Positions 28,149-53,681 of a stretch of DNA of 64,000 bases are shown here, piece by piece. The position numbers were made by a program, and so were the translations under genes. Origin of the DNA: an uncultured Clostridia bacterium (GTDB taxonomy: Bacteria; Bacillota; Limnochordia; Darwinibacteriales; Darwinibacteriaceae); assembly GCA_900018335.1 (NCBI GenBank), contig FIZK01000006.1:5576-69575 (forward strand), read 5' to 3'. A model generated the notes under the pieces. It was not told the origin of the DNA. It ran no database searches and worked only from the letters and a program-made list of their open reading frames with translations. The first letter of the stretch is position 1; each line of letters begins with the position of its first letter.

Positions 28149-28224
<76 letters not shown>

Positions 28225-37751: not shown

Positions 37752-39002
37752 ATGGGCGCTTTTCTGGTGGAGGGTCCGTGCCGCTTGCAGGGCGAAGTGC
37801 AGATCGGTGGAGCCAAGAATTCTGCTCTGAAACTTATGGTGGCAGCGCTCTTGGGGCAGGGCGCGTTCTGCTTGGAGAATGTACCGCACATCACCGATGT
37901 CTGCACCATGGCTGAGGTGCTGGAGTCTTTGGGGGCCCGCGTTCGTTTCAACGCCCAACGTATGGAAATCGAAGTTAATGCTCTTCAGGGCCGTACGCCT
38001 GAGCATCTGGTTAAGTCCATGCGGGCTTCGGTACAGGTGATGGGTCCTCTCCTGGCTCGTTTGGGATGGGTGGAAGTGGCCCTGCCAGGAGGGTGCGCCA
38101 TTGGTCGGCGCCCCCTGGATATTCATCTCTCTGGACTCCAGCAGATGGGTGCCTCCATCGCGCTGAACGGGGAGCGGCTCGTGGCCAGGGCTCCCCGGGG
38201 CTTGCGCGGAGCTGATATTACCTTTCGCTATCCCAGTGTGGGTGCTACGGAGAACATCATGATGGCCGCCGTCCTGGCTAAAGGAGAAACCGTGATCCGC
38301 AACGCGGCTCGGGAGCCTGAAATCGCGGATGTTCAAGCCTTCTTGAACGCCATGGGGGCACGTGTTACAGGCGCGGGGACCGAAGTGATTAGGATTGAGG
38401 GAGTCGGGGAGCTGGGCTGCGCGAATTTCGTGGTGATGCCCGACAGAATTGAGGCAGGTACCTATCTTCTGGCCCTGCTCACCACAGGCGGTGCTGGCAC
38501 CGTGTGCAGCGTTCGGCCGGAGCATCTTAGTCCTCTGCTCAACGCCGTGCGTTCCATGGGAGCCGAGATCGCCGTAGACGGGGACCGGATTTCGGTGGCC
38601 GCTCCCAAGAGGCTGCGGCCATTTGGGCTGGTGACCAGGCCCTATCCTGGTTTCCCCACCGATTTGCAGCCCCAAATGGTGGCAGCTGCCACCCAAGCCC
38701 ATGGGCGCAGTGAACTCAGGGAGACCGTGTTTGACCAGCGGTTTGGGTACCTAACCGAACTGAGAAAACTGGGTGCAGTGGCTAGGCAGAAGGGACAGGT
38801 GGTGGCCATTCACGGACCCACAAAACTGCACGGTACTCGGCTGGAAGCTGGTGATCTGAGGGCAGGGGCCGCTTTGGTTGTGGCCGCCTTGGCCGCCGAA
38901 GGACAATCACTCATCCATGGTTCCCAACACATCGATCGTGGCTATGAAGCATTGGAGCGAAAACTGAGTGGGCTGGGGGCCCGGATCCGCAGAGTGGAGT
39001 AG
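37752..39002 (+). CDS. murA: UDP-N-acetylglucosamine 1-carboxyvinyltransferase
   Basis: MGAFLVEGPCRLQGEVQIGGAKNSALKLM...; catalytic Cys in GGCAIGRRPLD; 416 aa. Confidence 0.95.
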   Translation: MGAFLVEGPCRLQGEVQIGGAKNSALKLMVAALLGQGAFCLENVPHITDVCTMAEVLESLGARVRFNAQRMEIEVNALQGRTPEHLVKSMRASVQVMGPLLARLGWVEVALPGGCAIGRRPLDIHLSGLQQMGASIALNGERLVARAPRGLRGADITFRYPSVGATENIMMAAVLAKGETVIRNAAREPEIADVQAFLNAMGARVTGAGTEVIRIEGVGELGCANFVVMPDRIEAGTYLLALLTTGGAGTVCSVRPEHLSPLLNAVRSMGAEIAVDGDRISVAAPKRLRPFGLVTRPYPGFPTDLQPQMVAAATQAHGRSELRETVFDQRFGYLTELRKLGAVARQKGQVVAIHGPTKLHGTRLEAGDLRAGAALVVAALAAEGQSLIHGSQHIDRGYEALERKLSGLGARIRRVE

Positions 39003-39016
39003 ATGGGAGGGTTAAC

Positions 39017-39703
39017 GTGCTCAATGAACTAGCAAGCGTCAAAAATGCTCTCTCCGTTTTGGTGTTGGCCCTCGTGTTGGCCCTGTACTTATTCGCTAAT
39101 TCTCCTTTTTTCGAAACGGACCATATTGAGTGGACAGGCCTTGTTAACCTCAGCTCCGAGCAGCTAGATGCCTATTTGAACCTGCCGGTGATCAATGTTT
39201 GGCGTTTGGATATGCGAGAACTCGTTGCGGTGCTGTCGAAGCATCCTTGGGTTGAAAGCGCCAAGGTTTCCTGGCGCTGGCCGAACCGCTTGATCGTGAA
39301 CGTTAAAGAGCGCATGCCTGTGGCCCAGATACCCACAGAGGGTGGCTGGGTGTACCTAGACCGGGAAGGCAGCATCCTCTCGCCAATCCAGCAGCACACG
39401 CTGGCTTCCCTGCCCATTGTCACCAATGTCAACCTGGAGGCTCCCGAGCAGCTGGTGTCCACTGCGCGGTTAATCACCCTCATTCCGCCAAGGTTGATGG
39501 GGGCCATTTCTGAGTGGAACGCCCAGGCGAGGGTTTTTGTCACCCGGTCAGGTGTGGAGATTTTCATGGGAGAACCGATGGAGCTGGAGGAGAAGTTTGC
39601 TCTGTTGGAGCAGATCCTGGACGATCTCCAGGCCCGTGGCGAACAGGCTGCACGTATCGATTTGGCGGTTCCCAAGACCCCGGTGGTGACGGTCGCTCGC
39701 TAG
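39017..39703 (+). CDS. divIB: cell division protein FtsQ/DivIB (POTRA)
   Basis: N-terminal TM followed by a POTRA domain; sits immediately upstream of ftsZ; 228 aa; GTG start with GGGAGGG Shine-Dalgarno. Confidence 0.75.
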   Translation: MLNELASVKNALSVLVLALVLALYLFANSPFFETDHIEWTGLVNLSSEQLDAYLNLPVINVWRLDMRELVAVLSKHPWVESAKVSWRWPNRLIVNVKERMPVAQIPTEGGWVYLDREGSILSPIQQHTLASLPIVTNVNLEAPEQLVSTARLITLIPPRLMGAISEWNAQARVFVTRSGVEIFMGEPMELEEKFALLEQILDDLQARGEQAARIDLAVPKTPVVTVAR

Positions 39704-39809
39704 GGATGTGGGGCTGATAGTTTTTTCCAAGGGGATAAAGGGAAAAGAGTGCTTGGTGTGGAAACTAACGTAATACAGTTGGAATTTGACGGTGAAGAAG
39801 GGGGACACC

Positions 39810-40859
39810 ATGTTCGAATTTGATCTCGATAACGTTCAATTTGCGGACATAAAAGTCGTCGGCTGCGGCGGCGGCGGCAGCAATGCGGTGAACCGCATGA
39901 TTGCCGCTGATCTAAAAGGGATAAATTTCATTGCCCTCAACACGGATGCCCAGGCTCTGCAGATGTCGGAAGCCCAGCAGAAGATCCAGATCGGTGAAAA
40001 ACTCACCAAAGGTTTGGGTGCGGGTTCTGATCCCACCATCGGCCAGCGCTCGGCTGAAGAGTCGCGGGAAGACATCGCCAGGGCCATAGACGGTGCGGAC
40101 ATGGTCTTCATTACCGCGGGCATGGGCGGTGGTACAGGTACTGGGGCTGCTCCCGTCGTGGCTGAAATCGCTAAAGAACTCAACGCACTAACAGTTGGAG
40201 TGGTGACCAAGCCCTTCTCTTTCGAGGGGAAACGGCGCAAGGAGCAGGCGGAGAAAGGTATCGAACAGTTAAAGGGCAAGGTGGATACCCTAATCGTCAT
40301 TCCCAACGACCGCCTGCTGCAGGTCGTGGAGAAGAGAACCTCCATGCTGGAAGCCTTTAGGGTAGCGGACGAGGTTCTGCTCCAGGGCGTACAGGGAATT
40401 TCGGATCTGATCACCGTGCCTGGTTTGATCAACCTGGACTTTGCCGATGTGAGGGCCATTATGACCGATGCTGGTTCAGCCCTCATGGGTATTGGTAAGG
40501 CTTCCGGCGAAGATCGGGCCCTTAAGGCTGCTCAGCAGGCCATCTCCAGTCCTCTGCTAGAGGCTTCCATTGAAGGAGCCAAAGGAATTCTGCTCAGCAT
40601 CGCCGGCAGTTCCGATCTAGGCCTCTTTGAAGTGAACGAAGCGGCCGAAACTGTGGCGCAAGCTGCAGCTTCTGATGCCAACATCATTTTCGGAGCGGTC
40701 ATTGATGAGAGCCTGGGTGAGAGTATTCGCGTTACGGTGATCGCCACCGGCTTCGACGCGCCCGCACCCAGGGACAATCTCCGCATCACCAAAGAACTGG
40801 ATGTTCGCCCCTTCACCGATGCGCCCATAGATATTCCTGCGTTCTTGCGGCGGAAGTAG
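39810..40859 (+). CDS. ftsZ: cell division GTPase FtsZ
   Basis: MFEFDL...[14 protein letters not shown], tubulin signature GGGTGTG, C-terminal DIPAFLRRK. The ORF opens at 39786, but the canonical N-terminus begins at ATG 39810. Confidence 0.95.
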
Positions 40860-40876
40860 TTGTGCTGGGGAAGTGG

Positions 40877-41602
40877 TTATTCCATCTTCTTCATTTCGCG
40901 TTTTAGCTTCTTTAGGATCTTTTTCTCCAAACGGGAGATGTAACTTTGGGAGATGCCCAGGAGGTCCGCGACTTCCCTTTGTGTGCGCTCCCTCTCGCAA
41001 TTGAGTCCAAATCTGAGTTCCATGATTTTCTTCTCACGCCCTGTGAGCTGCTGTAATGCGGCAGCAAGCAGGGCTTTGTCTACTTCTTTTTCGATGTGGC
41101 GCAGGATATCGCTTTCGCTGCCCACCACATCGGCCAACACCAGCTCATTGCCATCCCAATCCACGTTGAGGGGCTCATCAAAGGACACTTCTGCCTTCAG
41201 TTTGCTTGTTCTCCGCAGATACATGAGGATCTCGTTTTCGATGCAGCGGGACGCGTAGGTGGCCAGTTTGATGTTTTTGCCGGGATCAAAAGTGTTCACA
41301 GCCTTGATTAGGCCAATGGTCCCGATGGAAACCAAATCCTCAATGGAAATGCCGGTGTTCTCGAACTTGCGGGCTATGTAGACCACGAGGCGCAGATTAC
41401 GCTCGATGAGCGGAGTTCTTACCACCAAGTCTCCCGCCTGGAGGCGCGAAAGGAGCTCCTGCTCTTCTTCGCTGGAAAGGGGAGGCGGCAGAACCTCATT
41501 GCTGCCCACATAATGGACCTTGGGGCTCAGCCCAAGGCGGTGCAGAACCAGGATGAAGCGCAAACGGGCTTTAAGGCTGAAGATCTGAAGACGTCGTAGC
41601 AT
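40877..41602 (-). CDS. sigE: sporulation sigma factor SigE (pro-sigma-E)
   Basis: Near-identical blocks to B. subtilis SigE ([55 protein letters not shown]). Pro-sequence [18 protein letters not shown]... begins at ATG 41602; the ORF extends a further 14 codons upstream. Confidence 0.9.
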
Positions 41603-42533
41603 AGGCCTCGCCTCCTTCCACAACCTGCAGGGAGTTCTCCACAAGGTGAGGCGGTACTAGGGCGCTGTACTCACCGTGGGGGTCGAGACTATAGGGGTGG
41701 ATGGCGATGGTGGGCTGGAAGTCCCCAAGTAGACTGCGGGCCCCGATTTTCACCTCGTCGGGCCGAAAACCCAGCATCATGCCGTTAGTCCGCCCAATGG
41801 AGTTGAACGGAATGAGCCTAAGCCTCGTGCGCCAGGCTTTCAGCCTGGTGAGGCGTTCTAGTGCGTGGGGATCTCCTTCCTCTAAGGAAAGCATGATGGC
41901 GAACACGTCTGGTGGAAGCATGGTTTTTACGGCTTGGGACTCTACGATAATGACTGACTGCCTGCTGAGCGGGTCCTTGAGATGGTTACCCGTGTCGACC
42001 AAGGCAGTCATTTTGATTTTCTGCCCATCACAGGAGATCTCCACCGGAACCCGGTAGATGGCGCGCACCATCCGCTCGTGCACGATTCCCCAGCCCAGTT
42101 CAGCAATGAGCAAAATGGCTAGGATAGATACGAGGGTTCCCAGGGTAAAGGCGGGAGCGTTTGCAGATCCGAAGAGATATGCGCTGGCTAAGCCCATGCC
42201 AGCGGCGACGAAACCGATGGTGTAGAAGTAACCCGCGGCGATGAGCAGCCTTCGCCAAGCCATGGGGTAGAAGGCCGCGAAGAGCATGGCCACGGATATC
42301 AAAAGCACGACGGGGAAAAATCGAAGTAGACCGTACAGGGGAATGAGGCCGACGCTGGCTGCCAAGTAGAGGAGGTAATGGACAGTTCCGATCAAAGATC
42401 CAAGGATCAGGCGCATGCTGGTAGTCTGCGTACGTGTGATGGTGGCTGTGGCCCAAAGGAGGAGGTACTCAAAGATGAAGTTGCAGCCCAGTCGCAGGAG
42501 CCAAACATCAACGTACAGCGTGTATTCAAGCAT
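41571..42533 (-). CDS. spoIIGA: sigma-E processing peptidase SpoIIGA
   Basis: Polytopic N-terminal domain plus a C-terminal aspartic protease domain ([11 protein letters not shown]); directly upstream of and overlapping sigE; 320 aa. Confidence 0.85.
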
Positions 42534-42669
42534 ACGTTTTCCTCCCCGAAAAGGGTGTTTGCCTGAATATTAGAGGCAAAAGCGCAAAAGTCCTTCCTAA
42601 ACATACAAAAGCGAGGGAATTATCTTGTTTGGAGCCACCCCTGCCATTTACAGGTTCTCGGACAAAATG

Positions 42670-42699
42670 GAATAGATCTAGCCAGACGTGGCAATAATG
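42670..42699 (+). promoter_or_regulatory. candidate forespore (sigma-F/sigma-G-type) promoter upstream of sigG
   Basis: GAATA - 15 nt - GGCAATAATG resembles the sigma-F consensus (GYATA-15-GGnRAYAMTW) and the sigma-G -35 (GnATR); located about 35 nt upstream of sigG. Confidence 0.4.
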
Positions 42700-42734
42700 A
42701 ACTTTGTAATCGGCATTTTCAGGAGGGTGTGGAC

Positions 42735-43511
42735 ATGAACAAAGTGGAGATTTGCGGCGTAAACACCGCTAAGCTGCCCGTCTTGCCCAATGCCAAAATG
42801 CGTGAACTCCTGGCCAAGATCAAGGAGGGAGATCAAGCGGCCCGGGAAGAGATGGTTCAGGGCAACCTCCGTTTGGTGCTGAGTGTCATCCAGAGGTTCA
42901 ACAACCGGGGTGAATACGTAGATGACTTGTTCCAGGTGGGGTGTATCGGCCTGATGAAGGCCATTGACAACTTCGACCTGAGTCAAAACGTGAAATTCTC
43001 CACCTATGCCGTGCCCATGATCATCGGTGAGATCCGGCGATATCTGAGGGACAACAACCCCATCAGGGTAAGTCGGTCTCTGCGGGATATAGCCTACAAA
43101 GCCCTCCAGACCAGGGACAGCCTGGCCAACCGCTATTCCCAGGAGCCGTCCATTGGTCAGATTGCGGAAGAACTGCAGATCCCCAGGGAAGAGATTGTCT
43201 TTGCCTTAGATGCGATTCAAGAACCCATTTCACTCTTTGAGCCCATCTACAATGATGGAGGCGATCCCATCTTTGTATTGGATCAAATCAGCGACGAAAA
43301 GAACACGGAGCGGCGCCTGATCGAGGGGGTTAGCATTAAGGAGGGCATGGAGAACTTGGGTGAACGGGAACGTTTGATCCTGACCATGCGCTTCTATGAA
43401 GGAAGGACCCAAATGGAAGTCGCTGAAGAAATCGGGATTTCCCAGGCGCAGGTTTCCAGGCTGGAAAAGGCCGCCCTGCGGCATCTGCGCAAATATATGG
43501 CCACATCTTAA
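42735..43511 (+). CDS. sigG: sporulation sigma factor SigG
   Basis: MNKVEICGVNTAKLPVL... nearly identical in blocks to B. subtilis SigG (GNLRLVLSVIQRFNNRGEYVDDLFQVGCIGLMK...). ATG 42735 follows an AGGAGGG Shine-Dalgarno. Confidence 0.95.
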   Translation: MNKVEICGVNTAKLPVLPNAKMRELLAKIKEGDQAAREEMVQGNLRLVLSVIQRFNNRGEYVDDLFQVGCIGLMKAIDNFDLSQNVKFSTYAVPMIIGEIRRYLRDNNPIRVSRSLRDIAYKALQTRDSLANRYSQEPSIGQIAEELQIPREEIVFALDAIQEPISLFEPIYNDGGDPIFVLDQISDEKNTERRLIEGVSIKEGMENLGERERLILTMRFYEGRTQMEVAEEIGISQAQVSRLEKAALRHLRKYMATS

Positions 43512-43524
43512 AGGGGGAAAGCAT

Positions 43525-44202
43525 ATGTCGCGGGATTCTCTTGCTGCCCGTCTTTTGGTCTGTTTCGTGCTGCTGTGCACAGGCGCCTTTGCTTTTGGAC
43601 TTCTCTCCGCTTTGGAGCACGGTTTTCATAGTGATAAGGCTTTTGCGCAGGACTTGATTCGCCTTCATGTTATCGCCAACAGCAACCTGCCCCAAGACCA
43701 AGAGCTCAAGCTGAAGGTGCGGGATGCGGTCTTGCTGGAAACCAAGCGTATTCTAGGGGATATCACAGGGAAGGAACAGGCTTACACACTCCTGCAGCAC
43801 AATATCCAGGCACTAGAGCGCTGTGCGCAGGAGGAGGTCTTGGCCAACGGGTTTGACTATCCGGTGCAGATAAGAATGGGCAGTTACCTCTTTCCTGATC
43901 GTGATTATGGTGACCTGCTGCTGCCCGAGGGCCGCTACGATGCGGTGCGGGTGGAAATCGGTGCGGCTCAGGGTGATAACTGGTGGTGTATTCTTTTCCC
44001 ACCGCTCTGCCTGGCTGAATTGGAGGGAACTAGTTCCAACTTGGTCAAAGTTAATCAGAAGGAAAACACGGGTGAAGAAGCTGGTCGCAGTTTTGTTTTC
44101 CGCTCCAAGCTTTGGGAGCAGGTGGCACAGACCCGCTATGCGCGCCTGTTTCAAAGCTGGTGGCAGGCCTCGGCCGCAGGTCTTTCCGCCAGGGCGCGCT
44201 GA
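43525..44202 (+). CDS. spoIIR: stage II sporulation protein R (signal for pro-sigma-E processing)
   Basis: Signal/TM followed by the IRLHVIANSN SpoIIR motif; 225 aa from ATG 43525 (AAGGGGGA Shine-Dalgarno). The caller's N-terminal extension overlapping sigG is rejected. Confidence 0.8.
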   Translation: MSRDSLAARLLVCFVLLCTGAFAFGLLSALEHGFHSDKAFAQDLIRLHVIANSNLPQDQELKLKVRDAVLLETKRILGDITGKEQAYTLLQHNIQALERCAQEEVLANGFDYPVQIRMGSYLFPDRDYGDLLLPEGRYDAVRVEIGAAQGDNWWCILFPPLCLAELEGTSSNLVKVNQKENTGEEAGRSFVFRSKLWEQVAQTRYARLFQSWWQASAAGLSARAR

Positions 44203-44239
44203 ATCAGGGCAGTACAAGCCGAACAAGCACAGAAGGAAC

Positions 44240-44268
44240 GGCTCTTGGGCCGTTTCTTTTTTTGCTAG
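44240..44268 (+). terminator. rho-independent terminator after spoIIR
   Basis: GAACGGC-tcttgg-GCCGTTTC hairpin followed by TTTTTTTG. Confidence 0.55.
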
Positions 44269-44303: not shown

Positions 44304-44558
44304 GTGAAAGTGATCAGGACATCAGAGCTGCGCAGGCTTGATGTGATCAACGTGGAAGAGGGCCGGTACATGGGGAGCGTCTGCGATGTGGACTTGGATC
44401 CCGATACGGGGCGCATCAATGCTCTCATCGTGGACGAAGTGAAACCCCTCAGCTTCTTTTTCGGTGCCAGGCATACTGATGTGGAGATCCCCTGGCGGGA
44501 TATAGTATTGGTGGGAGAAGACGTGGTCTTGGTGAAAAACAGAACATGGAAAAGGTGA
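44304..44558 (+). CDS. ylmC: YlmC/YmxH family sporulation protein (PRC barrel)
   Basis: 84 aa: VIRTSELRRLDVINVEEGRYMGSVCDVDLDPDTGRINALIV; YlmC/YmxH family. Confidence 0.8.
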   Translation: MKVIRTSELRRLDVINVEEGRYMGSVCDVDLDPDTGRINALIVDEVKPLSFFFGARHTDVEIPWRDIVLVGEDVVLVKNRTWKR

Positions 44559-44614: not shown

Positions 44615-45070
44615 ATGCGCTGCCCGTTTTGTCTGCACTTGGACAGCAAGGTTCTAGATTCGAGGCAAACTGAGGAGGGCGGTTCCATCCGGCGCCGCAG
44701 GGAATGTACCGCCTGTCACAGGCGTTTTACTACATACGAACGCGTTGATGAAATGCCATTTTTGGTCGTGAAAAAGGATGGGCGCCGGGAACCTTTTTCC
44801 CGTACGAAGATCCTGAACGGAATAATGCGGGCCTGCGAGAAGAGGCCCATCTCTCTGGAGACCATCGAGCAGGCAGTGGATGAGATCGAAAGGGAAGTGC
44901 GCTCCAGCCTGGAGCGGGAGATCACCTCAACCTACATTGGTGAGCTGGTCATGGACAAGCTGCGTGCAATTGATGATGTGGCTTACGTGCGCTTTGCGTC
45001 TGTCTACAGGCAGTTCAAGGATGTTGATAGTTTCATCCAAGAAGTGCAGCAGCTGAGGAAAGATAGATAA
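44615..45070 (+). CDS. nrdR: transcriptional repressor NrdR
   Basis: [18 protein letters not shown]...[12 protein letters not shown] zinc ribbon plus ATP-cone; 151 aa. Confidence 0.95.
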
Positions 45071-45135
45071 TTGCCCGCCCATGGAGGTAGGGTTTGGCGT
45101 CGCTGCGTAGAACATGGAAGGGAAGGGGTGAAGAT

Positions 45136-47352
45136 GTGAGCAGAAAACCTCGAGAGCGCAAGGATAGCGGGGTGAGAGCCAGGGAAGTGGGGGGCATCCT
45201 GCTTTTGGCTTTCTCCGTCTTTTGTCTGCTTTCTTTATACGTAGATACCACCGGCTGGGTTGGCAGCCCCGTGCGGTCTGTCCTGCGCATGTGTTTCGGG
45301 GATTTGGCCGTGTTGTTCGTCCTGCTTTTTGCGGTCATGGCCATTCAGCTGTTCCTGGGAAAAGGCAGAGCACTGTCCTGGCAGTCCCAGGTGGGTCTGC
45401 TCCTGCTCATTTTCTCGGTCACCTTGATCTTTCACATGCTCTACTACCAGGGCTATCAGTTTCCCCCGAGCTTGCGGGAGGAAATCAGCTACGGTATGAA
45501 AGGCGAAGGAGCTGGAGTGTTGGGTGCGGTGATCTTGACCCTGAGCTACAACGCCTTCGGCATCCACGGCTCCTACGTTTTGGTGGGTACTGCCGTCCTG
45601 CTGGGGATCATGCTCTTTTTCGAGATCTCCTTGATCGATCTCCTTCGCGGGTTCTTTGGCCTGCTGCGACGGGCGTTAAGCAGCTGGTGGCATGGTGGTG
45701 AAAAAGAAGCTAAACGCAAGCAAAAGAAGGAGCGCAAGGTAGAGCGCAAAGAGCGCAGGCGGAGGCGGCCCAAGGTGCAGGAGCCGCCCACCGAGCTAGA
45801 GCCTGCTGCGGCGGCGTCTCCGCCGGAGGCGATGCCCAGGCCCGTAAAGGCCAAGAAAAAAGAGCAAGCCAAGGCCGAACCTGACCCGGAAGGACAGTTG
45901 GAGCAGCTGGTGTTGAATTTGCCCGCTGCGGAGGGACAGAGCGAACACCGCCTGCCCCCCACACACTTGCTGCGCCGCAGCAACAGCAGATCTCGGAAGA
46001 CCAGCGGACTGCAGCGGGAACTGCTGGAGGAAACGCTGGCCAACTTCGGTATCGAGGCTAGGGTTGTAAATGTATCCCAGGGCCCGGTGGTTACCCGCTA
46101 TGAACTGCAGCCTGCGCCGGGGATTAAGGTCTCCAGGATCACTTCCCTGGCGGATGATCTCGCCCTCGCTTTGGCCGCTGAGGATGTGCGCATCGAAGCT
46201 CCGGTGCCCGGCAAGCCGGTTGTGGGCATAGAGGTCCCCAACAAAGAGACGGAAATGGTCTTGTTGAGAGATGTCTTGGAGAGTCCCGAGTTCGCGGGCC
46301 ATCCTTCTCCAGTTGCCCTAGCTTTGGGGAAGGATATAGCCGGCCAGCCAGTCATTGCCGACCTGAAGAAGTGGCTGCATGTGCTCATTGCCGGCGCCAC
46401 CGGGTCGGGTAAGAGCGTCTGTTTGAACTGCATTATTGCCTCCCTTTTGTTCCGCACCACTCCCGACATGGTCAAACTGCTCTTAGTGGACCCGAAAAGG
46501 GTGGAACTGTCCGTCTACGACGGCATCCCCCATCTGATCAGCCCTGTGGTTACCGATCCCAAGAAAGCGGCCATCGCGCTGCGTTGGGCAGTAGGGGAGA
46601 TGGAGCGCCGCTACGAACTCTTCGCCGAAGCGGGGGTACGCAATATTGAGATGTACCACGAATGGTCTAAGGAGGCCGGGGAAGGCGAGGAGCGGCCGGA
46701 GCACCTTCCGTATATCGTCGTCATCGTGGACGAGCTGGCCGATTTGATGATGGTGGCCGCGGCTGAAGTGGAAGACGCCATCTGCCGCTTGGCCCAAATG
46801 GCCAGGGCGGCGGGGATGTACTTGATCATCGCAACGCAGAGGCCATCAGTGGATGTGATCACCGGCCTGATCAAGGCCAACGTGCCTTCTAGGGTTTCCT
46901 TTGCCGTATCCAGTCAGGTGGATTCCCGAACCATCCTGGACATGGGCGGAGCGGAACGGCTCATTGGTAAGGGGGACATGCTTTACTACCCAATCGGAGC
47001 ATCTAAGCCCGTGCGGGCTCAGGGGGCCTGGATTTCAGATAAGGAAGTGGAGGCTGTTGTAAAATATTGGAAGGACCAGGGTGAGCCGGAGTACAGGGAA
47101 GAGATCGTGGAGGACGCTCCAGAGCTAACCCTGCGTGACGACGAGGAAGATGAGCTCTTGGAGGATGCCATTCGCCTCGTGGTGGAGAACGGCCAGGCTT
47201 CCATATCCATGCTCCAGCGGAGGTTCCGCATTGGCTACAGCCGAGCTGCGCGGCTCATAGATATGATGGAAGTTCGGGGCATTGTCGGTGGCTATCAAGG
47301 CAGCAAGCCGCGGGAGGTCTTGGTGGATAAAGCAGTTCTAGAAGAAAGGTGA
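45136..47352 (+). CDS. ftsK: DNA translocase FtsK/SpoIIIE
   Basis: N-terminal TM helices; K/R/E- and Pro/Ala-rich linker; motor domain with Walker A GATGSGKS, Walker [10 protein letters not shown] and a gamma domain. Start is uncertain (TTG 45094 or GTG 45136). Confidence 0.9.
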
Positions 47353-47753: not shown

Positions 47754-48645
47754 CAGAGATTATCTGGTCCGGGCAATGCTCGGAGCGAATCAAGCCAGGG
47801 TTATGGCCCTGAGAACTACGCAGGTGACAAAGGAAGCCCAGGAGGTGCACGGCACCACCCCGGTGGCCACCGCGGCCCTAGGGCGCACCTTGACCATGGG
47901 TCTTGTACTGGGTGCCATGCTGAAAGATGAGGAGACCATCACGATCCAGATCAAGGGAGACGGTCCTTTGAGGGGGATCGTGGTTTCTGCCAACTCCCGG
48001 GGGCAGGTCAAAGGGTATGTGGGCAATCCCCATGTGGTGTTACCCTTGAACTCCTCAGGTAAGCTGGCGGTTGGCCAGGCGGTGGGTAGCGGGCACCTGC
48101 ATGTGATTCGGGACATGGGCCTGAAAGAGCCCTATTACGGGACGGTGCCGCTGCAGAACGGGGAAATCGGAGAGGATTTCGCCTACTACTTCACCGTTTC
48201 GGAACAGACACCCTCCGCGGTTTTGGTGGGAGTCCTGGTGGGCACGGATGGCGTACCCTTGGGCAGCGGCGGAATTGTGGTGCAGCTCATGCCCGGGGCC
48301 GAAAATGACGAGGCTTTCATCGCGGGACTGGAGGAACGCCTGCAGGGAGTGACGCAAGTGAGTTCGCTGTTTGCAGGTGAGCAAAGCCCAGAGGAAATAG
48401 TGCAGGAAGTCTTTGCGGGTCTGGAGATGCGCTTCATCCATCGCCAAGAGGTAGCCTTTTCCTGCGATTGCTCCCGGGAGCGTTTTGAGCGAGGATTGGT
48501 CACTTTAGGCGCTGAAGAGCTGCGGGAAATGGTGGACAAGGGAGAGCCCATAGAAGTGGTCTGTCATTTCTGCAACAAGCGCTACGACTTCACGGTGGGC
48601 GAGTTAGACAAGCTTTTGCAGGAGCTTGGAAATACTAGAGCATAA
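47746..48645 (+). CDS. hslO: redox-regulated chaperone Hsp33
   Basis: DYLVRAM N-terminus and C-terminal zinc centre CDCSRERF...CHFCNKRY; 299 aa; putative TTG start. Confidence 0.85.
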   Translation: MGNRDYLVRAMLGANQARVMALRTTQVTKEAQEVHGTTPVATAALGRTLTMGLVLGAMLKDEETITIQIKGDGPLRGIVVSANSRGQVKGYVGNPHVVLPLNSSGKLAVGQAVGSGHLHVIRDMGLKEPYYGTVPLQNGEIGEDFAYYFTVSEQTPSAVLVGVLVGTDGVPLGSGGIVVQLMPGAENDEAFIAGLEERLQGVTQVSSLFAGEQSPEEIVQEVFAGLEMRFIHRQEVAFSCDCSRERFERGLVTLGAEELREMVDKGEPIEVVCHFCNKRYDFTVGELDKLLQELGNTRA

Positions 48646-48690
48646 ATGTGATCCCCTTCCGCATATAGTGTTGTGGAAGGGGGAATAGCG

Positions 48691-49473
48691 ATGGCTAGAG
48701 TGGGAAAAACTGAAAAGAATGGTCCTGGACTCTTATTTATTGTTGTTACGCTGATAGTGGTAGCTGTGGTGGGAGCGCGCTTCTTCGGTTTCATGCCTGG
48801 AGATAAGGAAGAAGAAACACCGCTTCCCCCAGTGGTCAACGTAGAGGATCCTCCGCCGCCCCAAGGAGAGCAGGTGGAGGAGGCGGTGCCCAAGGTGCTG
48901 GTCTTCCACAGCCACGCCTCGGAGAACTATCGCCCTAAGGAAAGCCATGCGCGCGGTGAAACGGGAGATGTGGTGGCGGTTGGCGAAGCCTTTGTGGCAG
49001 AGCTGGCTTCCTTGGGCATCAAGGCAATTCACGACCAGACCATCCACGATCAGCCGCGCTACAGTGAAGCCTTCATCAATTCTGAGAAAAAGGTGAGCGA
49101 GCTTTTGGCCGCGAATCCAACGGTGCAGGTGGTTTTGGATCTACACCGCGACGGATTGCAGGACAAACCGGACGACTATACTAAAGCACGTGCGAATGGT
49201 ATGGACGTGGCTAAGATTCTCTTTGTGGTCGGCGATAAAGACAACGACTTGCTGGAGGAGAACCTTCGCTTTGCCCAGAAGCTCAGTGATGCCCTAGAGC
49301 AGCAGTACCCCGGAGTGACTAGAGGGGTGCGGGTTTTCAAATCTGATTACAGCGGAGAACTTCATCCCAACAGCATCATGGTCTTGATCGGAGACTGGCG
49401 GGGAAATACCGTGGAGGAGGCCGTAGCTTCGGCCCGTCTTCTGGCCAGGGTATTACTGCCTTTTGTGGAGTGA
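48691..49473 (+). CDS. spoIIP: stage II sporulation protein P (SpoIIP family cell-wall hydrolase)
   Basis: N-terminal TM followed by a VLVFHSHASENY motif and DLHRD. ATG 48691 sits 5 nt after GGAAGGGGGA. Confidence 0.75.
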   Translation: MARVGKTEKNGPGLLFIVVTLIVVAVVGARFFGFMPGDKEEETPLPPVVNVEDPPPPQGEQVEEAVPKVLVFHSHASENYRPKESHARGETGDVVAVGEAFVAELASLGIKAIHDQTIHDQPRYSEAFINSEKKVSELLAANPTVQVVLDLHRDGLQDKPDDYTKARANGMDVAKILFVVGDKDNDLLEENLRFAQKLSDALEQQYPGVTRGVRVFKSDYSGELHPNSIMVLIGDWRGNTVEEAVASARLLARVLLPFVE

Positions 49474-49503: not shown

Positions 49504-50856
49504 ATGAACCAGCACATACACCTTATTGGTATCGGTGGGACGGGCATGGGCCCGCTAGCCAAGGTCTTTTTGGAGATGGGTCACAAAGTTAGTGGTTCTG
49601 ATCTTCAACCTTCAGAGACCACCGATTATTTAATGAAACTAGGAGCGACAGTATACTTCAACCATTCCGCCGCGAATGTAAACGGAGCTACGCGAGTTAT
49701 CTACTCCAGTGCCATTCCCGTACAGAATCCGGAAATGGTTGCGGCCCGTCAAAAAGGCATTGACGTGCTGCATCGCTCTGAGGTCCTGGCGCAGCTGCTG
49801 AACAGCCGCAGGGGAATAGCTGTGAGCGGTGCCCACGGGAAGACCACCGTAACGTCCATGATTGCCCTCTGTCTAGAGATGGCAGGCACAGATCCTACTG
49901 TGCTTATTGGCGCGCATTTCGCGCCCTTTGGTCCGGGGGCCAAGTATGGGCGCGGCGATTTTGTGGTCGCGGAAGCCGATGAGAGTGATGGTTCTTTCCT
50001 GCGCTATCGTCCAGAGGTATCTGTGGTGACCAGCATTGAAGCGGATCATCTCGAGAACTACAACGGGACTTTTGAGTCTCTGATCGCCAGCTATCGGCGG
50101 TTTCTGAGCAACTTGAAGCCCGGTGGTCTGCGCTTGATCGGAATAGACCATCCCGTGGCAGCTTCCATCAGCCAGGAGTATGAATGCGTCACATATGGTT
50201 TTTCGCCAGATGCGCAGTGGCGCGCTGAAGTACTCCATTTGGAGCAGGAAAGATCTGCCTTTAGAGTGTTCCGGCACGGGGAGTTCTACGCCGATTTCGT
50301 GCTCAACGTTCCCGGGCGCCACAACATATCCAATGCCCTAGCCTGCATCATTGTGTGCCATCATGCGGGATTGACTGTGCAGGAGATGCAGCAGGCTCTC
50401 CGCCGTTTCACCGGGGCCAAGCGGCGGTTTGAAATCTTGGGTACGAGCCACGGGGCGTTGGTGGTGGATGACTACGCCCATCATCCCACGGAGGTTGCCG
50501 CTGTGATCAAGGCGGCCAAAGAAGGATGGCCTTCCAGGCGTATAGTGGCGGTTTTTCAGCCCCACCGCTACTCCAGGACGAAACTTCTGTTTGAGGAGTT
50601 TGTACAGGCATTTCGCGAAGCAGATGTGGTGATCATTACCGACATCTACGCTCCGCCTCCTGAAAAGCCCATTGCTAACGTGAGCGCAGCTGTCTTGGCT
50701 GAGCGTGTCCGTGAATGCAACGCTCCTAAGAATGTGTACCACATTCCTCGGCAGGAGGATGTGGTGCCCTTTTTGCGGGACTGGCTCACGGCGCGGGATC
50801 TGGTCTTGGTGATGGGCGCAGGGCCCATCTCACGGGTTGCCCATGAGTTAGTTTAG
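49504..50856 (+). CDS. murC: UDP-N-acetylmuramate--L-alanine ligase
   Basis: IHLIGIGGTGMGPLA Rossmann motif and GAHGKTTVTSM P-loop; 450 aa; located away from the dcw cluster. Confidence 0.9.
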   Translation: MNQHIHLIGIGGTGMGPLAKVFLEMGHKVSGSDLQPSETTDYLMKLGATVYFNHSAANVNGATRVIYSSAIPVQNPEMVAARQKGIDVLHRSEVLAQLLNSRRGIAVSGAHGKTTVTSMIALCLEMAGTDPTVLIGAHFAPFGPGAKYGRGDFVVAEADESDGSFLRYRPEVSVVTSIEADHLENYNGTFESLIASYRRFLSNLKPGGLRLIGIDHPVAASISQEYECVTYGFSPDAQWRAEVLHLEQERSAFRVFRHGEFYADFVLNVPGRHNISNALACIIVCHHAGLTVQEMQQALRRFTGAKRRFEILGTSHGALVVDDYAHHPTEVAAVIKAAKEGWPSRRIVAVFQPHRYSRTKLLFEEFVQAFREADVVIITDIYAPPPEKPIANVSAAVLAERVRECNAPKNVYHIPRQEDVVPFLRDWLTARDLVLVMGAGPISRVAHELV

Positions 50857-51714
50857 CTCACTCAGGTTGGCGATGGGGTCGTAGCTTAAGGTCTTAGTTC
50901 GCTCACGGCCTTGGGCGCCTACAACCACAAGGCGGTAGCGAAAAAGGGGGACGTAAAGTAGAGCCCCCCTCAGCGCGCTAATGGACAAAACGGGCTTCAG
51001 TCTTCTGTGCAGCTCTTGGCGCTTGGCCTCGAACTCCTGCGCAGAGGGTTTCCCCTGGAAGAACGATTGGAGCTTGGTTTCTTCCTGAGCGATCTTTTCC
51101 AGGGCCTGCTCTGCCCAGGATTGCTCTTGTTGGGCGAACGCCTGACTGATGTGCGCGGCAGCGTTGAGGTAAGCTGCCTTCAGGCTACACTTCCGCCTGG
51201 TAATCAGGTTCGATTCCACGCCTCCCCCTTGCAGAAGGTGGGTGGGGAAGGGGAACTTCAAAACCTCGCCAGAAGAGAGATTCACCACCACAGAGTGGAG
51301 AGTCTCTTTTTTTTGCAGTCCTTTGGCTGCGGCCGCAAGCTCGAGCTGCAGGTACTGCCCAAAAAGGTAAGAACTGGTGAGCACGTAAGCCCGCTCTCCT
51401 GGTTCAAAACTAGTGAGGATCCGCCTGCGTATGGAAGGTTCGTGAAAGAAGTGGTGGGGGATGTGGGCATGGCTGAGGACGCCCTGCCTGCGGATGAGCT
51501 GCAGGATGCTGTTCAGCCGATAGCTGCCTGGACTGATCAAGTCGGCTCCGTAGGCGGCAGCCAGGTCTTCCTCAAAGGTGAACTGCAGCAGACGGCCTTG
51601 GGCGCGCCAGCCGTCAAGTTCCTTCATGAGGGCATCGTCTGCCCTGACCTGCCAGACGCCCCGGCGGATTTCCACCGGCACCAGTCCGCAGAGTCTAAAG
51701 AAGTCAAACACCAA
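50848..51714 (-). CDS. hypothetical protein co-transcribed with an SNF2 helicase (possibly YqhG-like)
   Basis: 288-aa ORF starting 5 nt after the helicase stop; no recognisable catalytic motifs. Bacillus pairs the YqhH SNF2 helicase with YqhG. Confidence 0.4.
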   Translation of the reverse strand: MVFDFFRLCGLVPVEIRRGVWQVRADDALMKELDGWRAQGRLLQFTFEEDLAAAYGADLISPGSYRLNSILQLIRRQGVLSHAHIPHHFFHEPSIRRRILTSFEPGERAYVLTSSYLFGQYLQLELAAAAKGLQKKETLHSVVVNLSSGEVLKFPFPTHLLQGGGVESNLITRRKCSLKAAYLNAAAHISQAFAQQEQSWAEQALEKIAQEETKLQSFFQGKPSAQEFEAKRQELHRRLKPVLSISALRGALLYVPLFRYRLVVVGAQGRERTKTLSYDPIANLSELN

Positions 51715-51719
51715 GCGCT

Positions 51720-53408
51720 CTATAGCAATCCCTCCCAGGAGGACGCCCTGAGTTCTTCCCGCCCCTGCAGAATCTTCTGGGCCAGTTCATCCAAGTCTTT
51801 TTGGATTTTCTCCGTCTCTTCATGGGCCAAGAAAATCTTCATGATCTCGCTTTCGAAGGATTTACCCAGATTGAGGTGGAGTAGGATGGCGTCGAGTTCG
51901 CCGATGATGGATTCAAACATGTTGATCTTCTGATGCAGTAGGTACATGATATGTTCTTCCACCGTGCCCTTGGTAATAAGGTTATAAATGTGGACATCTC
52001 GGGTCTGGCCCAGTCGGTGCACCCGGCCAATACGCTGCTCCAGGCGCATGGGGTTCCAGGGCAGATCGAAGTTGACCACCTGGTTGCAGAACTGGAAGTT
52101 GAGCCCTTCTCCCCCAGACTCAGTGCTGACCAGGAACTGGGCATCCTGTTGAAACAGGTGGCGGACCCACTGCTTTTTGCCCCTGGAGAGGCTGCCGTCG
52201 AAGGCCAAGGTTCGGTAACCAGCCTTTTCCAGCCTGTAGCGGATGTATTCTTGTGACGCTCTGTATTCGGTGAAAATGATGGCCTTGTCTTGGAACTGGG
52301 AAACAAGGCGTTCCAAAGCATCACATTTGCTGTTCTGCTTCACTTTCGCGAGATCTTTGAGCAGAGTCGCGGCGCGCTCCAAATCGGGCCGCGGTAGGCC
52401 AGCCATCATCTTTTCCAGTGTTAAGGCCACGGCGAGGAACGATGAGCAAACTTCGCGCTGGAGGGTGATCAGGGGAAGCATATTGCTCAGACCGGACCTC
52501 CTGCCCTGGGCCTTGATAAACTCTGTCACCCGGTCGTAGATTTCCTGTTCTTTGGGGCCTAGAGTGACGATGATGGGGTGGACGATGCGCTCCGTGAATC
52601 TGACCTGTCCTTCCTCGCGCCGATTGCGGATCATCACTTCCTTCAGCAATGTCTTGAGCTCACTGGGGTTTTTCGGAGTCCGTTTGTCTGCCATAAAGCG
52701 GCTTTTGAAGGATTGATAGCTGCCCAGTTGACCGGGTTTGATCAACCCAATGAGGTTGTAGAGCTCCTTCAGGTCATTTTGCACGGGCGTCGCTGTGAGC
52801 ATTAGGCAGTACTTCTTCTGAATGGCGTTCACCAAACGGTAGCTGGCCGTGGAGCTGTTCTTGAGTTTATGGGCTTCGTCAACGATAAGCAAGTCATAGA
52901 CAATACTGGTGACTATGGAGGAGTGGGGCTCGCGTTTGGCGGTGTCGATGGAGGCGATCAGAACATCCGCAAAGTTCCAATCCCATTGAGTGCGCTGTAT
53001 GCCCGCTGCTATCCCGAACTTTTCATAGAGCTCTTGGTACCACTGCCAGACCAGGTTCGCGGGGGTGAGGATCAATACCTTTTTGGCCAGTCCCCGCAGC
53101 ATGTACTCTTTCAGAATAAGGCCGGCCTCGATTGTTTTGCCCAAACCCACTTCATCGGCTAAGATGGCCTGTCCGTGCATTTCGTGGATCACTCTCTCCG
53201 CTGTTCGAATCTGGTGCTCATAGGGCACTACTCCCACCTGTGACCAGCGTTCCCTTAAATTTTCCAGGGCGATCAACCCCGAAGCCTGGTTTTGAACAGC
53301 AGCGAGCTCGTCGGCGCGTCGTGCCAATTGATACCAATCCCAGGTGTCGAATCGGCTGGCGCGCAACTCAGCGATGATGTGTCTATACCCGTCAGCCAGG
53401 ACTTCCAC
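51720..53408 (-). CDS. SNF2/RapA-family DEAD-like helicase (YqhH-like)
   Basis: Motifs I (LADEVGLGKT), II (DEAH in LLIVDEAHKLKN), III, and C-terminal helicase motifs (GGEGLNFQ, RIGRVHRLGQTRDV). The ORF extends to ATG 53687, but the first ~93 codons are low-complexity and not helicase-like; GTG 53408 gives about 562 aa, the size of Bacillus YqhH. Confidence 0.75.
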   Translation of the reverse strand: MEVLADGYRHIIAELRASRFDTWDWYQLARRADELAAVQNQASGLIALENLRERWSQVGVVPYEHQIRTAERVIHEMHGQAILADEVGLGKTIEAGLILKEYMLRGLAKKVLILTPANLVWQWYQELYEKFGIAAGIQRTQWDWNFADVLIASIDTAKREPHSSIVTSIVYDLLIVDEAHKLKNSSTASYRLVNAIQKKYCLMLTATPVQNDLKELYNLIGLIKPGQLGSYQSFKSRFMADKRTPKNPSELKTLLKEVMIRNRREEGQVRFTERIVHPIIVTLGPKEQEIYDRVTEFIKAQGRRSGLSNMLPLITLQREVCSSFLAVALTLEKMMAGLPRPDLERAATLLKDLAKVKQNSKCDALERLVSQFQDKAIIFTEYRASQEYIRYRLEKAGYRTLAFDGSLSRGKKQWVRHLFQQDAQFLVSTESGGEGLNFQFCNQVVNFDLPWNPMRLEQRIGRVHRLGQTRDVHIYNLITKGTVEEHIMYLLHQKINMFESIIGELDAILLHLNLGKSFESEIMKIFLAHEETEKIQKDLDELAQKILQGREELRASSWEGLL

Positions 53409-53681
53409 ATGGAAGCGTTCACAGGGAAACTCTCGCAGGATTGCTGAACCGTCTTTTCGTGACCAAGGACCGGACGTGTGGGCGAAAAACGGAAGCAAAT
53501 GGCCACCCCCTCTACACGATCCTTCCCTGTGTGCCCCATTCCTATGAGAATAAGTAGTGATGGTCAGTTTTGCTCCATAGCAGGATTTTTCGTCTTTAAC
53601 TAGAATAGTAGTTGAGACGTCTGGCAGACTCCAGAAGCGTCGCCCGGATATTTCTGGGTAATTGAGGAGGTAGAAGGTGTA

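What the first reader, a model, noticed from the sequence alone, without database searches (positions are those of the whole stretch)
40877..44202. Rearranged pro-sigma-E activation locus: spoIIGA-sigE inverted and divergent from a sigG-spoIIR pair
In Bacillus and many Clostridia, spoIIGA-sigE-sigG lie co-directionally downstream of ftsZ, and spoIIR is elsewhere. Here spoIIGA-sigE are on the opposite strand to both ftsZ and sigG. sigG is followed 14 nt later by spoIIR, the forespore signal that activates SpoIIGA. All three components of the sigma-E activation pathway (protease, substrate, trans-compartment signal) plus sigma-G therefore sit within 3.4 kb. The sigma-A read-through from spoIIG into sigG known in B. 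subtilis is impossible here. spoIIR would be co-transcribed with sigG from the forespore-type promoter found in the 195-bp divergent intergenic region.
Basis: partly seen in the sequence, partly recalled or inferred. Interest (0 to 1): 0.55.

Follow-up and report, generated by a model that had tools for sequence, protein, structure and literature searches.

The report
Inverted spoIIGA-sigE beside sigG-spoIIR operon
The genes that switch on the mother-cell sporulation factor sigma-E are really arranged as described, and the flipped spoIIGA-sigE pair is a fixed trait of a Limnochordia-like group of bacteria, but the sigG-spoIIR pairing is old and widespread, so this is a modest gene-order variant of a well-known system.

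Summary
Profile searches identify sigE (40877-41602, -), spoIIGA (41571-42533, -), sigG (42735-43511, +) and spoIIR (43525-44202, +), lying just after ftsZ. It is not an assembly artefact: eight independent assemblies, with SpoIIR 40-76% and SpoIIGA down to 38% identical, show the same inverted layout. These relatives are annotated as Limnochordia MAGs.

Only the inversion is specific to this clade. Neomoorella thermoacetica, Thermanaeromonas toyohensis, Sporomusa silvacetica and several MAGs have ftsA-ftsZ-spoIIGA-sigE-sigG-spoIIR all on one strand. The sigG-spoIIR linkage therefore looks ancestral rather than part of the rearrangement. It is rare in gut Clostridia (4 of 74 informative loci).

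A sigma-F-type promoter, GAATA-N15-GGCAATAATG, sits about 35 nt upstream of sigG and is conserved in all 13 loci compared. The sigG-spoIIR gap is 13 nt, and a strong terminator follows spoIIR. Together these support a forespore-expressed sigG-spoIIR bicistron.

Most co-directional relatives have a terminator after sigE. In this clade, gene orientation does that insulating job instead.

The spoIIGA promoter type is unresolved; no Spo0A box was found.

Verdict: a new variant of a known kind, of modest interest.

The parts
39810..40859 (+). ftsZ, the last gene of the dcw block. It converges on sigE with a 17-nt gap.
   Evidence: TIGR00065 scores 447 bits. The ORF starts at 39786. The ATG at 39810 gives 349 aa, matching the relatives.
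40877..41602 (-). sigE, encoding pro-sigma-E (241 aa). The ATG at 41602 follows a GGAAGGAGG Shine-Dalgarno sequence.
   Evidence: NF006158 scores 389 bits and TIGR02835 scores 383 bits, both above their cut-offs. The start region is shown. Relatives are called at 241-242 aa.
41571..42533 (-). spoIIGA, the pro-sigma-E processing aspartic protease (320 aa). It overlaps sigE by 32 nt.
   Evidence: PF03419 scores 224 bits over the full length. TIGR02854 scores 176 bits, below its equivalog cut-off of 209.55. D180-T-G-N is invariant in 13 homologues.
42567..42598 (-). Conserved putative spoIIGA promoter blocks: a -10-like TAATAT (42567-42572) and an upstream AGGAAGGA (42591-42598). The promoter type is unresolved.
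   Evidence: These columns are invariant in a 7-locus alignment. No Spo0A box and no TTGACA-like -35 were found.
42670..42699 (+). Sigma-F-type (forespore) promoter of sigG-spoIIR: GAATA, a 15-nt spacer, then GGCAATAATG.
   Evidence: The -10 matches GGnnAnAHTR exactly, and GAATA is a known -35 variant (consensus from PMC11599450). The motif is conserved at the same distance from the ATG in all 8 inverted and 5 co-directional loci. The chance expectation is 0.06 per window.
42735..43511 (+). sigG, the forespore late sigma factor (258 aa from the ATG).
   Evidence: TIGR02850 scores 487 bits against a cut-off of 457. The ribosome-binding site and ATG are shown.
43525..44202 (+). spoIIR, the forespore signal protein that activates SpoIIGA. 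It starts 13 nt after the sigG stop.
   Evidence: TIGR02837 scores 155.8 bits against a cut-off of 151.9. PF09551 scores 153 bits. 34 columns are invariant, including the NWWC..FPP.C motif.
44231..44265 (+). Intrinsic terminator that ends the sigG-spoIIR unit: a 13-bp stem followed by a U-run.
   Evidence: The fold gives -32.7 kcal/mol with z = -4.26, and none of 200 shuffles folds as well.
44304..44558 (+). ylmC/ymxH-family sporulation PRC-barrel gene. It is the conserved downstream neighbour in both inverted and co-directional relatives.
   Evidence: TIGR02888 scores 70.5 bits. Synteny is shown.

Best explanation
This is the ordinary pro-sigma-E activation system in a gene order specific to one lineage.

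**Inferred history.** The ancestral clostridial cluster was ftsA-ftsZ-spoIIGA-sigE-sigG-spoIIR-ylmC, all on one strand. In a Limnochordia-like clade, the cassette made of the spoIIG promoter, spoIIGA and sigE was inverted in place and the inversion became fixed. The ancestral order is inferred from the outgroups.

**Resulting layout.** Two independent, back-to-back transcription units share a control region of about 160-300 bp.
- Leftward: spoIIGA-sigE. The two ORFs overlap by 32 nt, which suggests translational coupling. They are read from a promoter with a conserved TAATAT -10 and a conserved AGGARGGA element upstream. I presume this promoter acts before division or in the mother cell and depends on an activator.
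- Rightward: a sigG-spoIIR bicistron. It is read from a conserved sigma-F-type promoter with the optimal 15-nt spacer and ends at a strong intrinsic terminator.

**Inferred mechanism.** This follows the B. subtilis pathway. Sigma-F in the forespore transcribes sigG-spoIIR. SpoIIR is exported across the septum and activates membrane-bound SpoIIGA. [quoted passage not shown]

**Consequences of the geometry.**
- No transcript that starts at the spoIIG promoter can reach sigG or spoIIR. Orientation therefore replaces the terminator that co-directional relatives carry after sigE.
- spoIIR and sigG are necessarily made together. Any delay in sigma-G activity must be post-transcriptional.
- spoIIR and spoIIGA-sigE are 1 kb apart. 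They cannot sit at different chromosomal positions, as they do in B. subtilis.
For: **Shown by tool results**
- Gene identities.
- The inverted layout in 8 independent assemblies, spanning 38-100% SpoIIGA identity.
- The co-directional layout, with ftsA, in outgroups L090-L093, L095 (Neomoorella thermoacetica), L007 (Sporomusa), L028 and L076.
- The sigma-F-type promoter conserved in all 13 loci compared, with no such motif inside sigG or in the sigG-spoIIR gap. Its chance expectation is 0.06 per window.
- A sigG-spoIIR gap of 11-28 nt in 7 of the 8 inverted loci, holding only a ribosome-binding site.
- The terminator after spoIIR, with z = -4.3.
- A hairpin plus T-run after sigE in 7 of 8 co-directional outgroups.
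- The sigE Shine-Dalgarno and ATG lying inside the spoIIGA 3' end.

**From the literature**
- The sigma-F consensus is GYATA / GGnnAnAHTR, and GAATA occurs in genuine sigma-F promoters (PMC11599450).
- A 15-nt spacer is optimal for sigma-F. Bacilli use a weakening 14-nt spacer and a non-ATG start codon for sigG, whereas Clostridia mostly do not (PMC5942855).
- Read-through from spoIIG into sigG exists in B. subtilis (PMC5942855).
Against: - No transcript data exist for any member of the clade. Promoter assignments rest on sequence consensus and conservation only.
- The spoIIGA promoter has no recognisable -35 and no Spo0A box, so its regulator is unknown.
- SpoIIGA scores below the NCBIfam equivalog cut-off (176 against 209.55 bits), although Pfam and the catalytic motif are clear.
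- L094, the most divergent inverted locus, has a 95-nt sigG-spoIIR gap. Tight coupling is therefore not universal in the clade.
- The direction of evolution is inferred from outgroups, not from a rooted species tree.
- Only 64 kb was examined, so a second spoIIR copy elsewhere in the genome cannot be excluded.
Confidence: 0.75

Rival explanations
1. The inversion was selected as hard insulation. spoIIR is fused to sigG by a 13-nt gap. Any read-through from the spoIIG promoter, which acts before division and in the mother cell, would therefore make SpoIIR in the wrong cell. That would trigger pro-sigma-E processing independently of the compartment. Flipping spoIIGA-sigE removes this risk.
For: Seven of 8 co-directional relatives carry a terminator-like hairpin between sigE and the sigG promoter, so insulation at this junction appears to be under selection. 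The orientation is retained across deep divergence, down to 38% SpoIIGA identity. Read-through at this junction is documented in B. subtilis, where a hairpin blocks its translation (PMC5942855).
Against: Terminators evidently suffice in Neomoorella, Thermanaeromonas and other relatives that also have tight sigG-spoIIR gaps. L095 has a 25-nt gap. A single neutral inversion, once fixed, would be inherited in the same way. There is no experimental evidence.
Confidence: 0.25
2. spoIIR has its own promoter inside the 3' part of sigG and is regulated independently of sigG.
For: Internal promoters are common. In more distant relatives (L092, L090, L094) the sigG-spoIIR gap is 82-123 nt, which leaves room for one.
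Against: No sigma-F-type motif, even in relaxed form, was found within sigG or the gap in any of the 13 loci. The 13-nt gap holds only a ribosome-binding site. The only strong terminator lies after spoIIR.
Confidence: 0.1
3. The spoIIGA-sigE segment is a reversible, recombinase-driven invertible element, that is, a phase-variable sporulation switch.
For: An 11-nt inverted repeat (40878-40888 and 42664-42674) lies at both junctions.
Against: One arm of the repeat is the conserved sigE C-terminal codons ATGGAATAA and the other is the conserved sigG -35 region, so it is explained by function. Only repeats of 14 nt or less are present. No recombinase gene lies nearby. All 8 assemblies show one orientation.
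Confidence: 0.02
4. The inversion is an assembly artefact in this contig.
Against: The same junctions were assembled independently in GCA_029776155.1, JGI 3300022212, ENA ERZ922851, ERZ27283060 and ERZ27280805, Logan SRR30803359 and SRR8272536, and GCA_040436515.1. These come from diverged organisms.
Confidence: 0.01

Closest known systems
Bacillus subtilis spoIIG (spoIIGA-sigE)-sigG locus with an unlinked, origin-proximal spoIIR
   Same: It has the same four proteins and, by inference, the same pathway: sigma-F, then SpoIIR, then SpoIIGA, then cleavage of pro-sigma-E. sigG has a sigma-F/sigma-G-type promoter. The locus lies downstream of ftsZ.
   Different: - In B. subtilis, sigG is co-directional with spoIIGA-sigE and receives untranslated read-through transcripts (PMC5942855).
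- spoIIR is unlinked and origin-proximal, and that position matters for timing (Khvorova 2000, via PMC5034851).
- The sigG promoter has a weakening 14-nt spacer and a GTG start codon.
- In the window, spoIIGA-sigE is inverted, spoIIR is fused behind sigG, the spacer is 15 nt, and the start codon is ATG.
Neomoorella thermoacetica / Thermanaeromonas toyohensis / Sporomusa silvacetica cluster: ftsA-ftsZ-spoIIGA-sigE-sigG-spoIIR-ylmC
   Same: It has the same gene set and the same sigG-spoIIR-ylmC order. The same sigma-F-type promoter lies upstream of sigG (GTATA-N15-GGCAATAATT in Neomoorella). The sigG-spoIIR gap is short, 25 nt in L095.
   Different: - All genes are co-directional.
- A terminator-like hairpin separates sigE from the sigG promoter.
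- ftsA is present.
- spoIIGA and sigE do not overlap.
- SpoIIGA lacks the C-terminal tail.
Clostridium / Clostridioides spoIIGA-sigE-sigG cluster with spoIIR elsewhere
   Same: It has the same core components and sigma-F-dependent spoIIR.
   Different: spoIIR is unlinked. In a sample of Clostridia spoIIR loci, 70 of 74 with enough upstream sequence have no sigG next to spoIIR. The three sigma-cluster genes are co-directional.

Membership tests
SpoIIR (stage II sporulation protein R) | Profile match above the curated cut-off (TIGR02837 / PF09551) | tested here: met
   TIGR02837 scores 155.8 bits against a cut-off of 151.9, a narrow margin. PF09551 scores 152.6 bits against 25.
SpoIIR (stage II sporulation protein R) | Conserved core residues and an N-terminal hydrophobic export segment | tested here: met
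   34 columns are invariant across 14 homologues, including RLHV.A.S and NWWC..FPP.C. The N-terminus LLVCFVLLCTGAFAFGLL is hydrophobic.
SpoIIR (stage II sporulation protein R) | Sigma-F-dependent expression in the forespore | not testable with these tools
   Only a conserved sigma-F-type promoter upstream of the sigG-spoIIR unit supports this.
SpoIIGA (peptidase U4/A36, sigma-E processing protease) | Full-length profile match | tested here: inconclusive
   Pfam PF03419 scores 223.8 bits, covering profile positions 2-283 of 284. The NCBIfam equivalog TIGR02854 scores 176.2 bits, below its cut-off of 209.55. It is the only family hit.
SpoIIGA (peptidase U4/A36, sigma-E processing protease) | Catalytic aspartate in a D-[ST]-G motif | tested here: met
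   D180-T181-G182-N183 is invariant in 13 sequences, including Neomoorella and Pelotomaculum. The assignment of the catalytic role rests on my own knowledge of the B. subtilis enzyme.
SigE (pro-sigma-E) | Equivalog profile match above the cut-off, plus an N-terminal pro-sequence | tested here: met
   NF006158 scores 389.3 bits against 339. TIGR02835 scores 382.7 bits against 348.6. From the 41602 ATG, about 30 residues ([30 protein letters not shown]) precede the conserved [12 protein letters not shown]. Cleavage itself was not testable.
SigG | Equivalog profile match above the cut-off that separates it from SigF | tested here: met
   TIGR02850 scores 487 bits against 457. NF006071 scores 474 bits against 372. 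The SigF model TIGR02885 scores 302 bits, below its cut-off of 321.
Canonical spoIIG-sigG cluster (ftsZ > spoIIGA > sigE > sigG, co-directional) | spoIIGA-sigE on the same strand as ftsZ and sigG | tested here: not met
   spoIIGA-sigE lie on the minus strand, between ftsZ and sigG on the plus strand. The inversion is conserved in 8 assemblies.
Sigma-F-dependent promoter | -35 GYATA, a spacer of about 15 nt, and -10 GGnnAnAHTR | tested here: met
   The site is GAATA-N15-GGCAATAATG at 42670-42699. The -10 match is exact. The -35 is the GAATA variant reported in genuine sigma-F promoters (PMC11599450). Function was not tested.

The most novel reading that the evidence does not exclude
In this clade, and in the co-directional Moorella- and Sporomusa-type relatives, the whole criss-cross signalling module is one compact cassette. 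The signal gene spoIIR is obligatorily co-expressed with sigG and sits 1 kb from its target operon. The gene-position timing that B. subtilis relies on (spoIIR near the origin, spoIIG far from it) therefore cannot operate.

Suppose the dcw-linked cluster is origin-distal. It lies at about 31% of the Neomoorella record and about 36% of the Sporomusa record, assuming both records start near oriC. In that case spoIIR would enter the forespore only after substantial DNA translocation. Sigma-E activation would then be gated by chromosome translocation. The inversion would be an adaptive way to stop pre-divisional read-through from making SpoIIR in the wrong cell.
Probability: 0.2. Interest if true: 0.5.

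Novelty: new variant of a known kind. Interest (0 to 1): 0.3.

Why it matters
**For annotation and phylogeny.** The inverted spoIIGA-sigE cassette travels with two other changes: loss of ftsA from the ftsQ-ftsZ junction, and a SpoIIGA tail that overlaps sigE. Together they make a clean synteny marker for a Limnochordia-like clade that is known mostly from MAGs.

**For sporulation biology.** The broader pattern is more useful than the inversion itself. A sigma-F-driven sigG-spoIIR operon beside spoIIGA-sigE appears to be the ancestral clostridial state. Three features of B. subtilis then look derived:
- an unlinked, origin-proximal spoIIR;
- a deliberately weakened sigG promoter;
- read-through from spoIIG into sigG.

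This gives a concrete, testable contrast for how the timing of sigma-E and sigma-G activation evolved. It does not reveal a new mechanism.

Tried and rejected
- **Spo0A boxes.** I searched the divergent spacer of 8 clade members for TGNCGAA, exact or with one mismatch to TGTCGAA. None appears in the window, and only weak hits appear in L087 and L094. A Spo0A-box-based assignment of the spoIIG promoter could not be made.
- **Sigma-H reading of the AGGARGGA block.** The -10 lacks GAAT, so I rejected it.
- **Generic sigma-70 and terminator scan.** It gave nothing above the shuffle expectation and missed the real terminator after spoIIR. Folding recovered that terminator.
- **Inverted repeats as inversion scars.** Only repeats of 14 nt or less were found. 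The pair at the junctions is explained by the conserved sigE C-terminal codons and the sigG -35 element.
- **Second strict sigma-F pattern hit (48683-48712).** It overlaps the spoIIP ribosome-binding site and ATG, so it is a chance match.
- **RBS-sequestering hairpin in the sigG leader.** It is no better than shuffled sequence, with z = -0.35.
- **Limnochorda pilosa.** It did not appear by name in either protein search. Whether the type species shares the inversion is untested.
- **Literature.** Searches found no paper describing a sigG-spoIIR operon or this inversion. The library is incomplete, so this is weak evidence of novelty.
Full report

Yes. The ORF table and the profile scans give this order:
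- ftsZ (39810-40859, +);
- sigE (40877-41602, -);
- spoIIGA (41571-42533, -);
- sigG (42735-43511, +);
- spoIIR (43525-44202, +);
- a ylmC/ymxH-family gene (44304-44558, +);
- nrdR (44615-45070, +);
- ftsK (45094-47352, +).

SigE, SigG and SpoIIR all exceed their NCBIfam equivalog cut-offs. SpoIIR does so narrowly, at 155.8 against 151.9 bits. SpoIIGA is a full-length Pfam Peptidase_U4 match (224 bits) but falls below the stricter NCBIfam cut-off (176 against 209.55 bits). Its D-T-G-N motif is invariant across 13 homologues, including Neomoorella and Pelotomaculum.

The sigG stop and the spoIIR ATG are separated by 13 nt that hold only an AGGGGGA ribosome-binding site. ftsZ and sigE converge with 17 nt between their stop codons. 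tblastn finds no second spoIIR in the 64 kb.

**2. Is it an assembly artefact?**

No. SpoIIR and SpoIIGA homologues, several labelled Limnochordia bacterium MAGs, were traced to their contigs. The layout ftsQ > ftsZ > < sigE < spoIIGA | sigG > spoIIR > PRC-barrel gene is found in:
- L081 (GCA_029776155.1);
- L084 (JGI 3300022212);
- L085 and L086 (two ENA assemblies);
- L087, L088 and L089 (GCA_040436515.1);
- L094.

nrdR and ftsK follow in most of these loci, some with an extra gene between them. These loci span SpoIIR identities of 76% down to 40% and SpoIIGA identity down to 38%. The inversion is therefore an old, fixed feature of the clade.

**3. What is specific to the clade, and what is not?**

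The sigG-spoIIR adjacency is not specific. Co-directional clusters of ftsA > ftsZ > spoIIGA > sigE > sigG > spoIIR > PRC occur in:
- L090, L091 and L093 (metagenomic contigs);
- L092 (Thermanaeromonas toyohensis);
- L095 (Neomoorella thermoacetica CP136551.1, at 783-796 kb of 2.54 Mb);
- L007 (Sporomusa silvacetica, at 2.19 of 6.05 Mb);
- L028 and L076.

A broad sample of 80 Clostridia spoIIR loci, mostly from gut MAGs, shows the adjacency in only 4 of the 74 with enough upstream sequence. The linkage itself looks ancestral and is retained in several thermophilic or deep-branching lineages.

Three features are specific to the clade:
- the inversion of spoIIGA-sigE;
- the absence of ftsA between ftsQ and ftsZ;
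- a C-terminal tail of about 20 residues on SpoIIGA that runs 26-32 nt into sigE.

The conserved GGE in that tail is simply the sigE Shine-Dalgarno sequence, GGAGG, read in frame.

**4. Regulatory anatomy**

*Conserved blocks.* An alignment of the divergent spacer from seven clade members shows two conserved blocks in otherwise variable sequence.

*The sigG promoter.* Next to sigG lies GAATAG-N14-TGGCAATA(A/C)TGA. In the window this is GAATA, a 15-nt spacer, then GGCAATAATG at 42670-42699, ending 35 nt before the ATG.
- The -10 matches the sigma-F consensus GGnnAnAHTR exactly.
- GAATA is a -35 variant reported in genuine sigma-F promoters (PMC11599450).
- The same element, at the same distance, is present in all 8 inverted and 5 co-directional loci examined.
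- The strict pattern is expected 0.06 times per 64 kb by chance.

*Spacer length.* The 15-nt spacer and ATG start contrast with B. subtilis. There, a 14-nt spacer and a GTG start deliberately weaken early sigG expression. That feature is reported to be typical of Bacilli and not of Clostridia (PMC5942855). An optimal sigma-F promoter makes sense if the same transcript must also deliver the early signal SpoIIR.

*A single transcription unit.* No sigma-F-type motif occurs inside sigG or in the gap before spoIIR in any locus. A 13-bp-stem terminator follows spoIIR, at -32.7 kcal/mol with z = -4.3. I conclude that sigG-spoIIR is a bicistronic unit expressed in the forespore. This is an inference from sequence and has not been shown by transcript data.

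*The spoIIGA promoter.* Next to spoIIGA, CTAATATTC is invariant on the sense strand; it contains a -10-like TAATAT at 42567-42572. About 18 nt upstream, AGGARGGA is invariant (42591-42598). There is no TTGACA-like -35 and no Spo0A box, and the -10 lacks the GAAT of sigma-H promoters. The promoter type is unresolved. One co-directional outgroup (L090) has a similar AGGAAGGAAT ... TATAAT arrangement, which suggests the promoter moved with the cassette.

**5. Mechanism and consequences**

By homology with B. subtilis, the pathway is as follows. This rests on established knowledge summarised in PMC5034851 and PMC5942855.
- Sigma-F transcribes spoIIR in the forespore.
- SpoIIR activates SpoIIGA at the septum.
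- SpoIIGA cleaves pro-sigma-E.

The geometry has three consequences.

*Read-through is impossible.* No transcript from the spoIIG promoter can reach sigG or spoIIR. In co-directional relatives, insulation at this point appears to come from an intrinsic terminator after sigE, present in 7 of 8 outgroups. B. subtilis tolerates the read-through and blocks its translation with a hairpin.

*sigG and spoIIR mRNA are made together.* Sigma-G activity must therefore be delayed after transcription.

*The signal gene and its target operon are 1 kb apart.* The B. subtilis arrangement, with spoIIR near the origin and spoIIG distant from it, cannot apply. In B. subtilis that arrangement matters for timing (Khvorova 2000, via PMC5034851).

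Whether the inversion was selected for insulation or is a neutral fixed event cannot be decided here. I rate the adaptive reading at about 0.25.

**6. Rivals**

- An invertible switch is unlikely. All assemblies show one orientation, no recombinase gene lies nearby, and only short inverted repeats are present. The 11-nt pair at the junctions is made of the conserved sigE C-terminal codons and the sigG -35 region.
- An independent spoIIR promoter is not supported.
- An assembly artefact is excluded.

**7. Novelty and score**

The components and the pathway are textbook. The sigG-spoIIR operon is widespread outside the model organisms, though I found no paper that describes it. The inversion is a clade-level synteny variant. 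I class the finding as a new variant of a known kind, with interest 0.3.

The most novel reading still open has a probability of about 0.2. It is that linkage of spoIIR to an origin-distal dcw cluster makes sigma-E activation depend on chromosome translocation, with the inversion as adaptive insulation.

Noticed in passing
window 39017-40859; L081, L084-L089 compared with L090-L093 and L095: ftsA is absent between ftsQ and ftsZ in the window and in every inverted-clade locus. No FtsA-like sequence occurs anywhere in the 64 kb. All co-directional outgroups have ftsA at that position. Absence from the whole genome was not tested.
   Followed up: partly
window 41571-41640 (- strand): SpoIIGA in this clade has a C-terminal tail of about 20 residues that outgroups lack, and it overlaps sigE by 26-32 nt. 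The conserved GGE in the tail is the sigE Shine-Dalgarno sequence GGAGG read in frame. The tail probably arose when the ancestral stop codon was lost.
   Followed up: yes
window 40860-40876; L081, L084, L085, L087, L088, L089 ftsZ/sigE junctions: Six relatives have a strong GC-rich hairpin flanked by A- and T-runs between the convergent ftsZ and sigE genes, which looks like a bidirectional terminator. The window has only a 17-nt gap and a weak G.U-rich hairpin over the sigE stop codon, and L094 has an 8-nt gap. ftsZ transcription may therefore run antisense into sigE in this organism.
   Followed up: partly
window 48640-48669, upstream of spoIIP (48691-49473): A sigma-E-type motif, GCATAAAT-N14-CATATAGT, is conserved upstream of spoIIP in the window and in five relatives. 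This fits a functional mother-cell sigma-E regulon.
   Followed up: partly
window 48683-48712: This is the second exact match to the strict sigma-F pattern. It overlaps the spoIIP ribosome-binding site and start codon, so it is probably a chance match produced by coding and RBS constraints.
   Followed up: yes
window 42591-42598 and 42565-42573: The blocks AGGARGGA and CTAATATTC upstream of spoIIGA are invariant, but they fit no sigma-A -35, Spo0A-box or sigma-H -10 consensus. The regulator of spoIIGA-sigE in this clade is unknown.
   Followed up: partly
L007 4763-9160 (Sporomusa silvacetica): About 4.4 kb is inserted between sigE and sigG in Sporomusa, while the sigG-spoIIR adjacency is kept.
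   Followed up: no
window 28149-28224 and 28318-28669: tRNA-Met and a class A bacterial RNase P RNA lie between the dnaG/sigma-70 region and the dcw cluster.
   Followed up: no
window 37752-39002: A murA-type enolpyruvyl transferase gene sits inside the dcw cluster, between ftsW/spoVE and ftsQ. It is conserved in the relatives and the outgroups.
   Followed up: no
window 50848-53687 (- strand): A YqhG-family gene and an SNF2-family helicase lie on the minus strand. The helicase has weak similarity to DISARM DrmD, far below that model's cut-off. The pair is conserved next to the cluster in close relatives.
   Followed up: no
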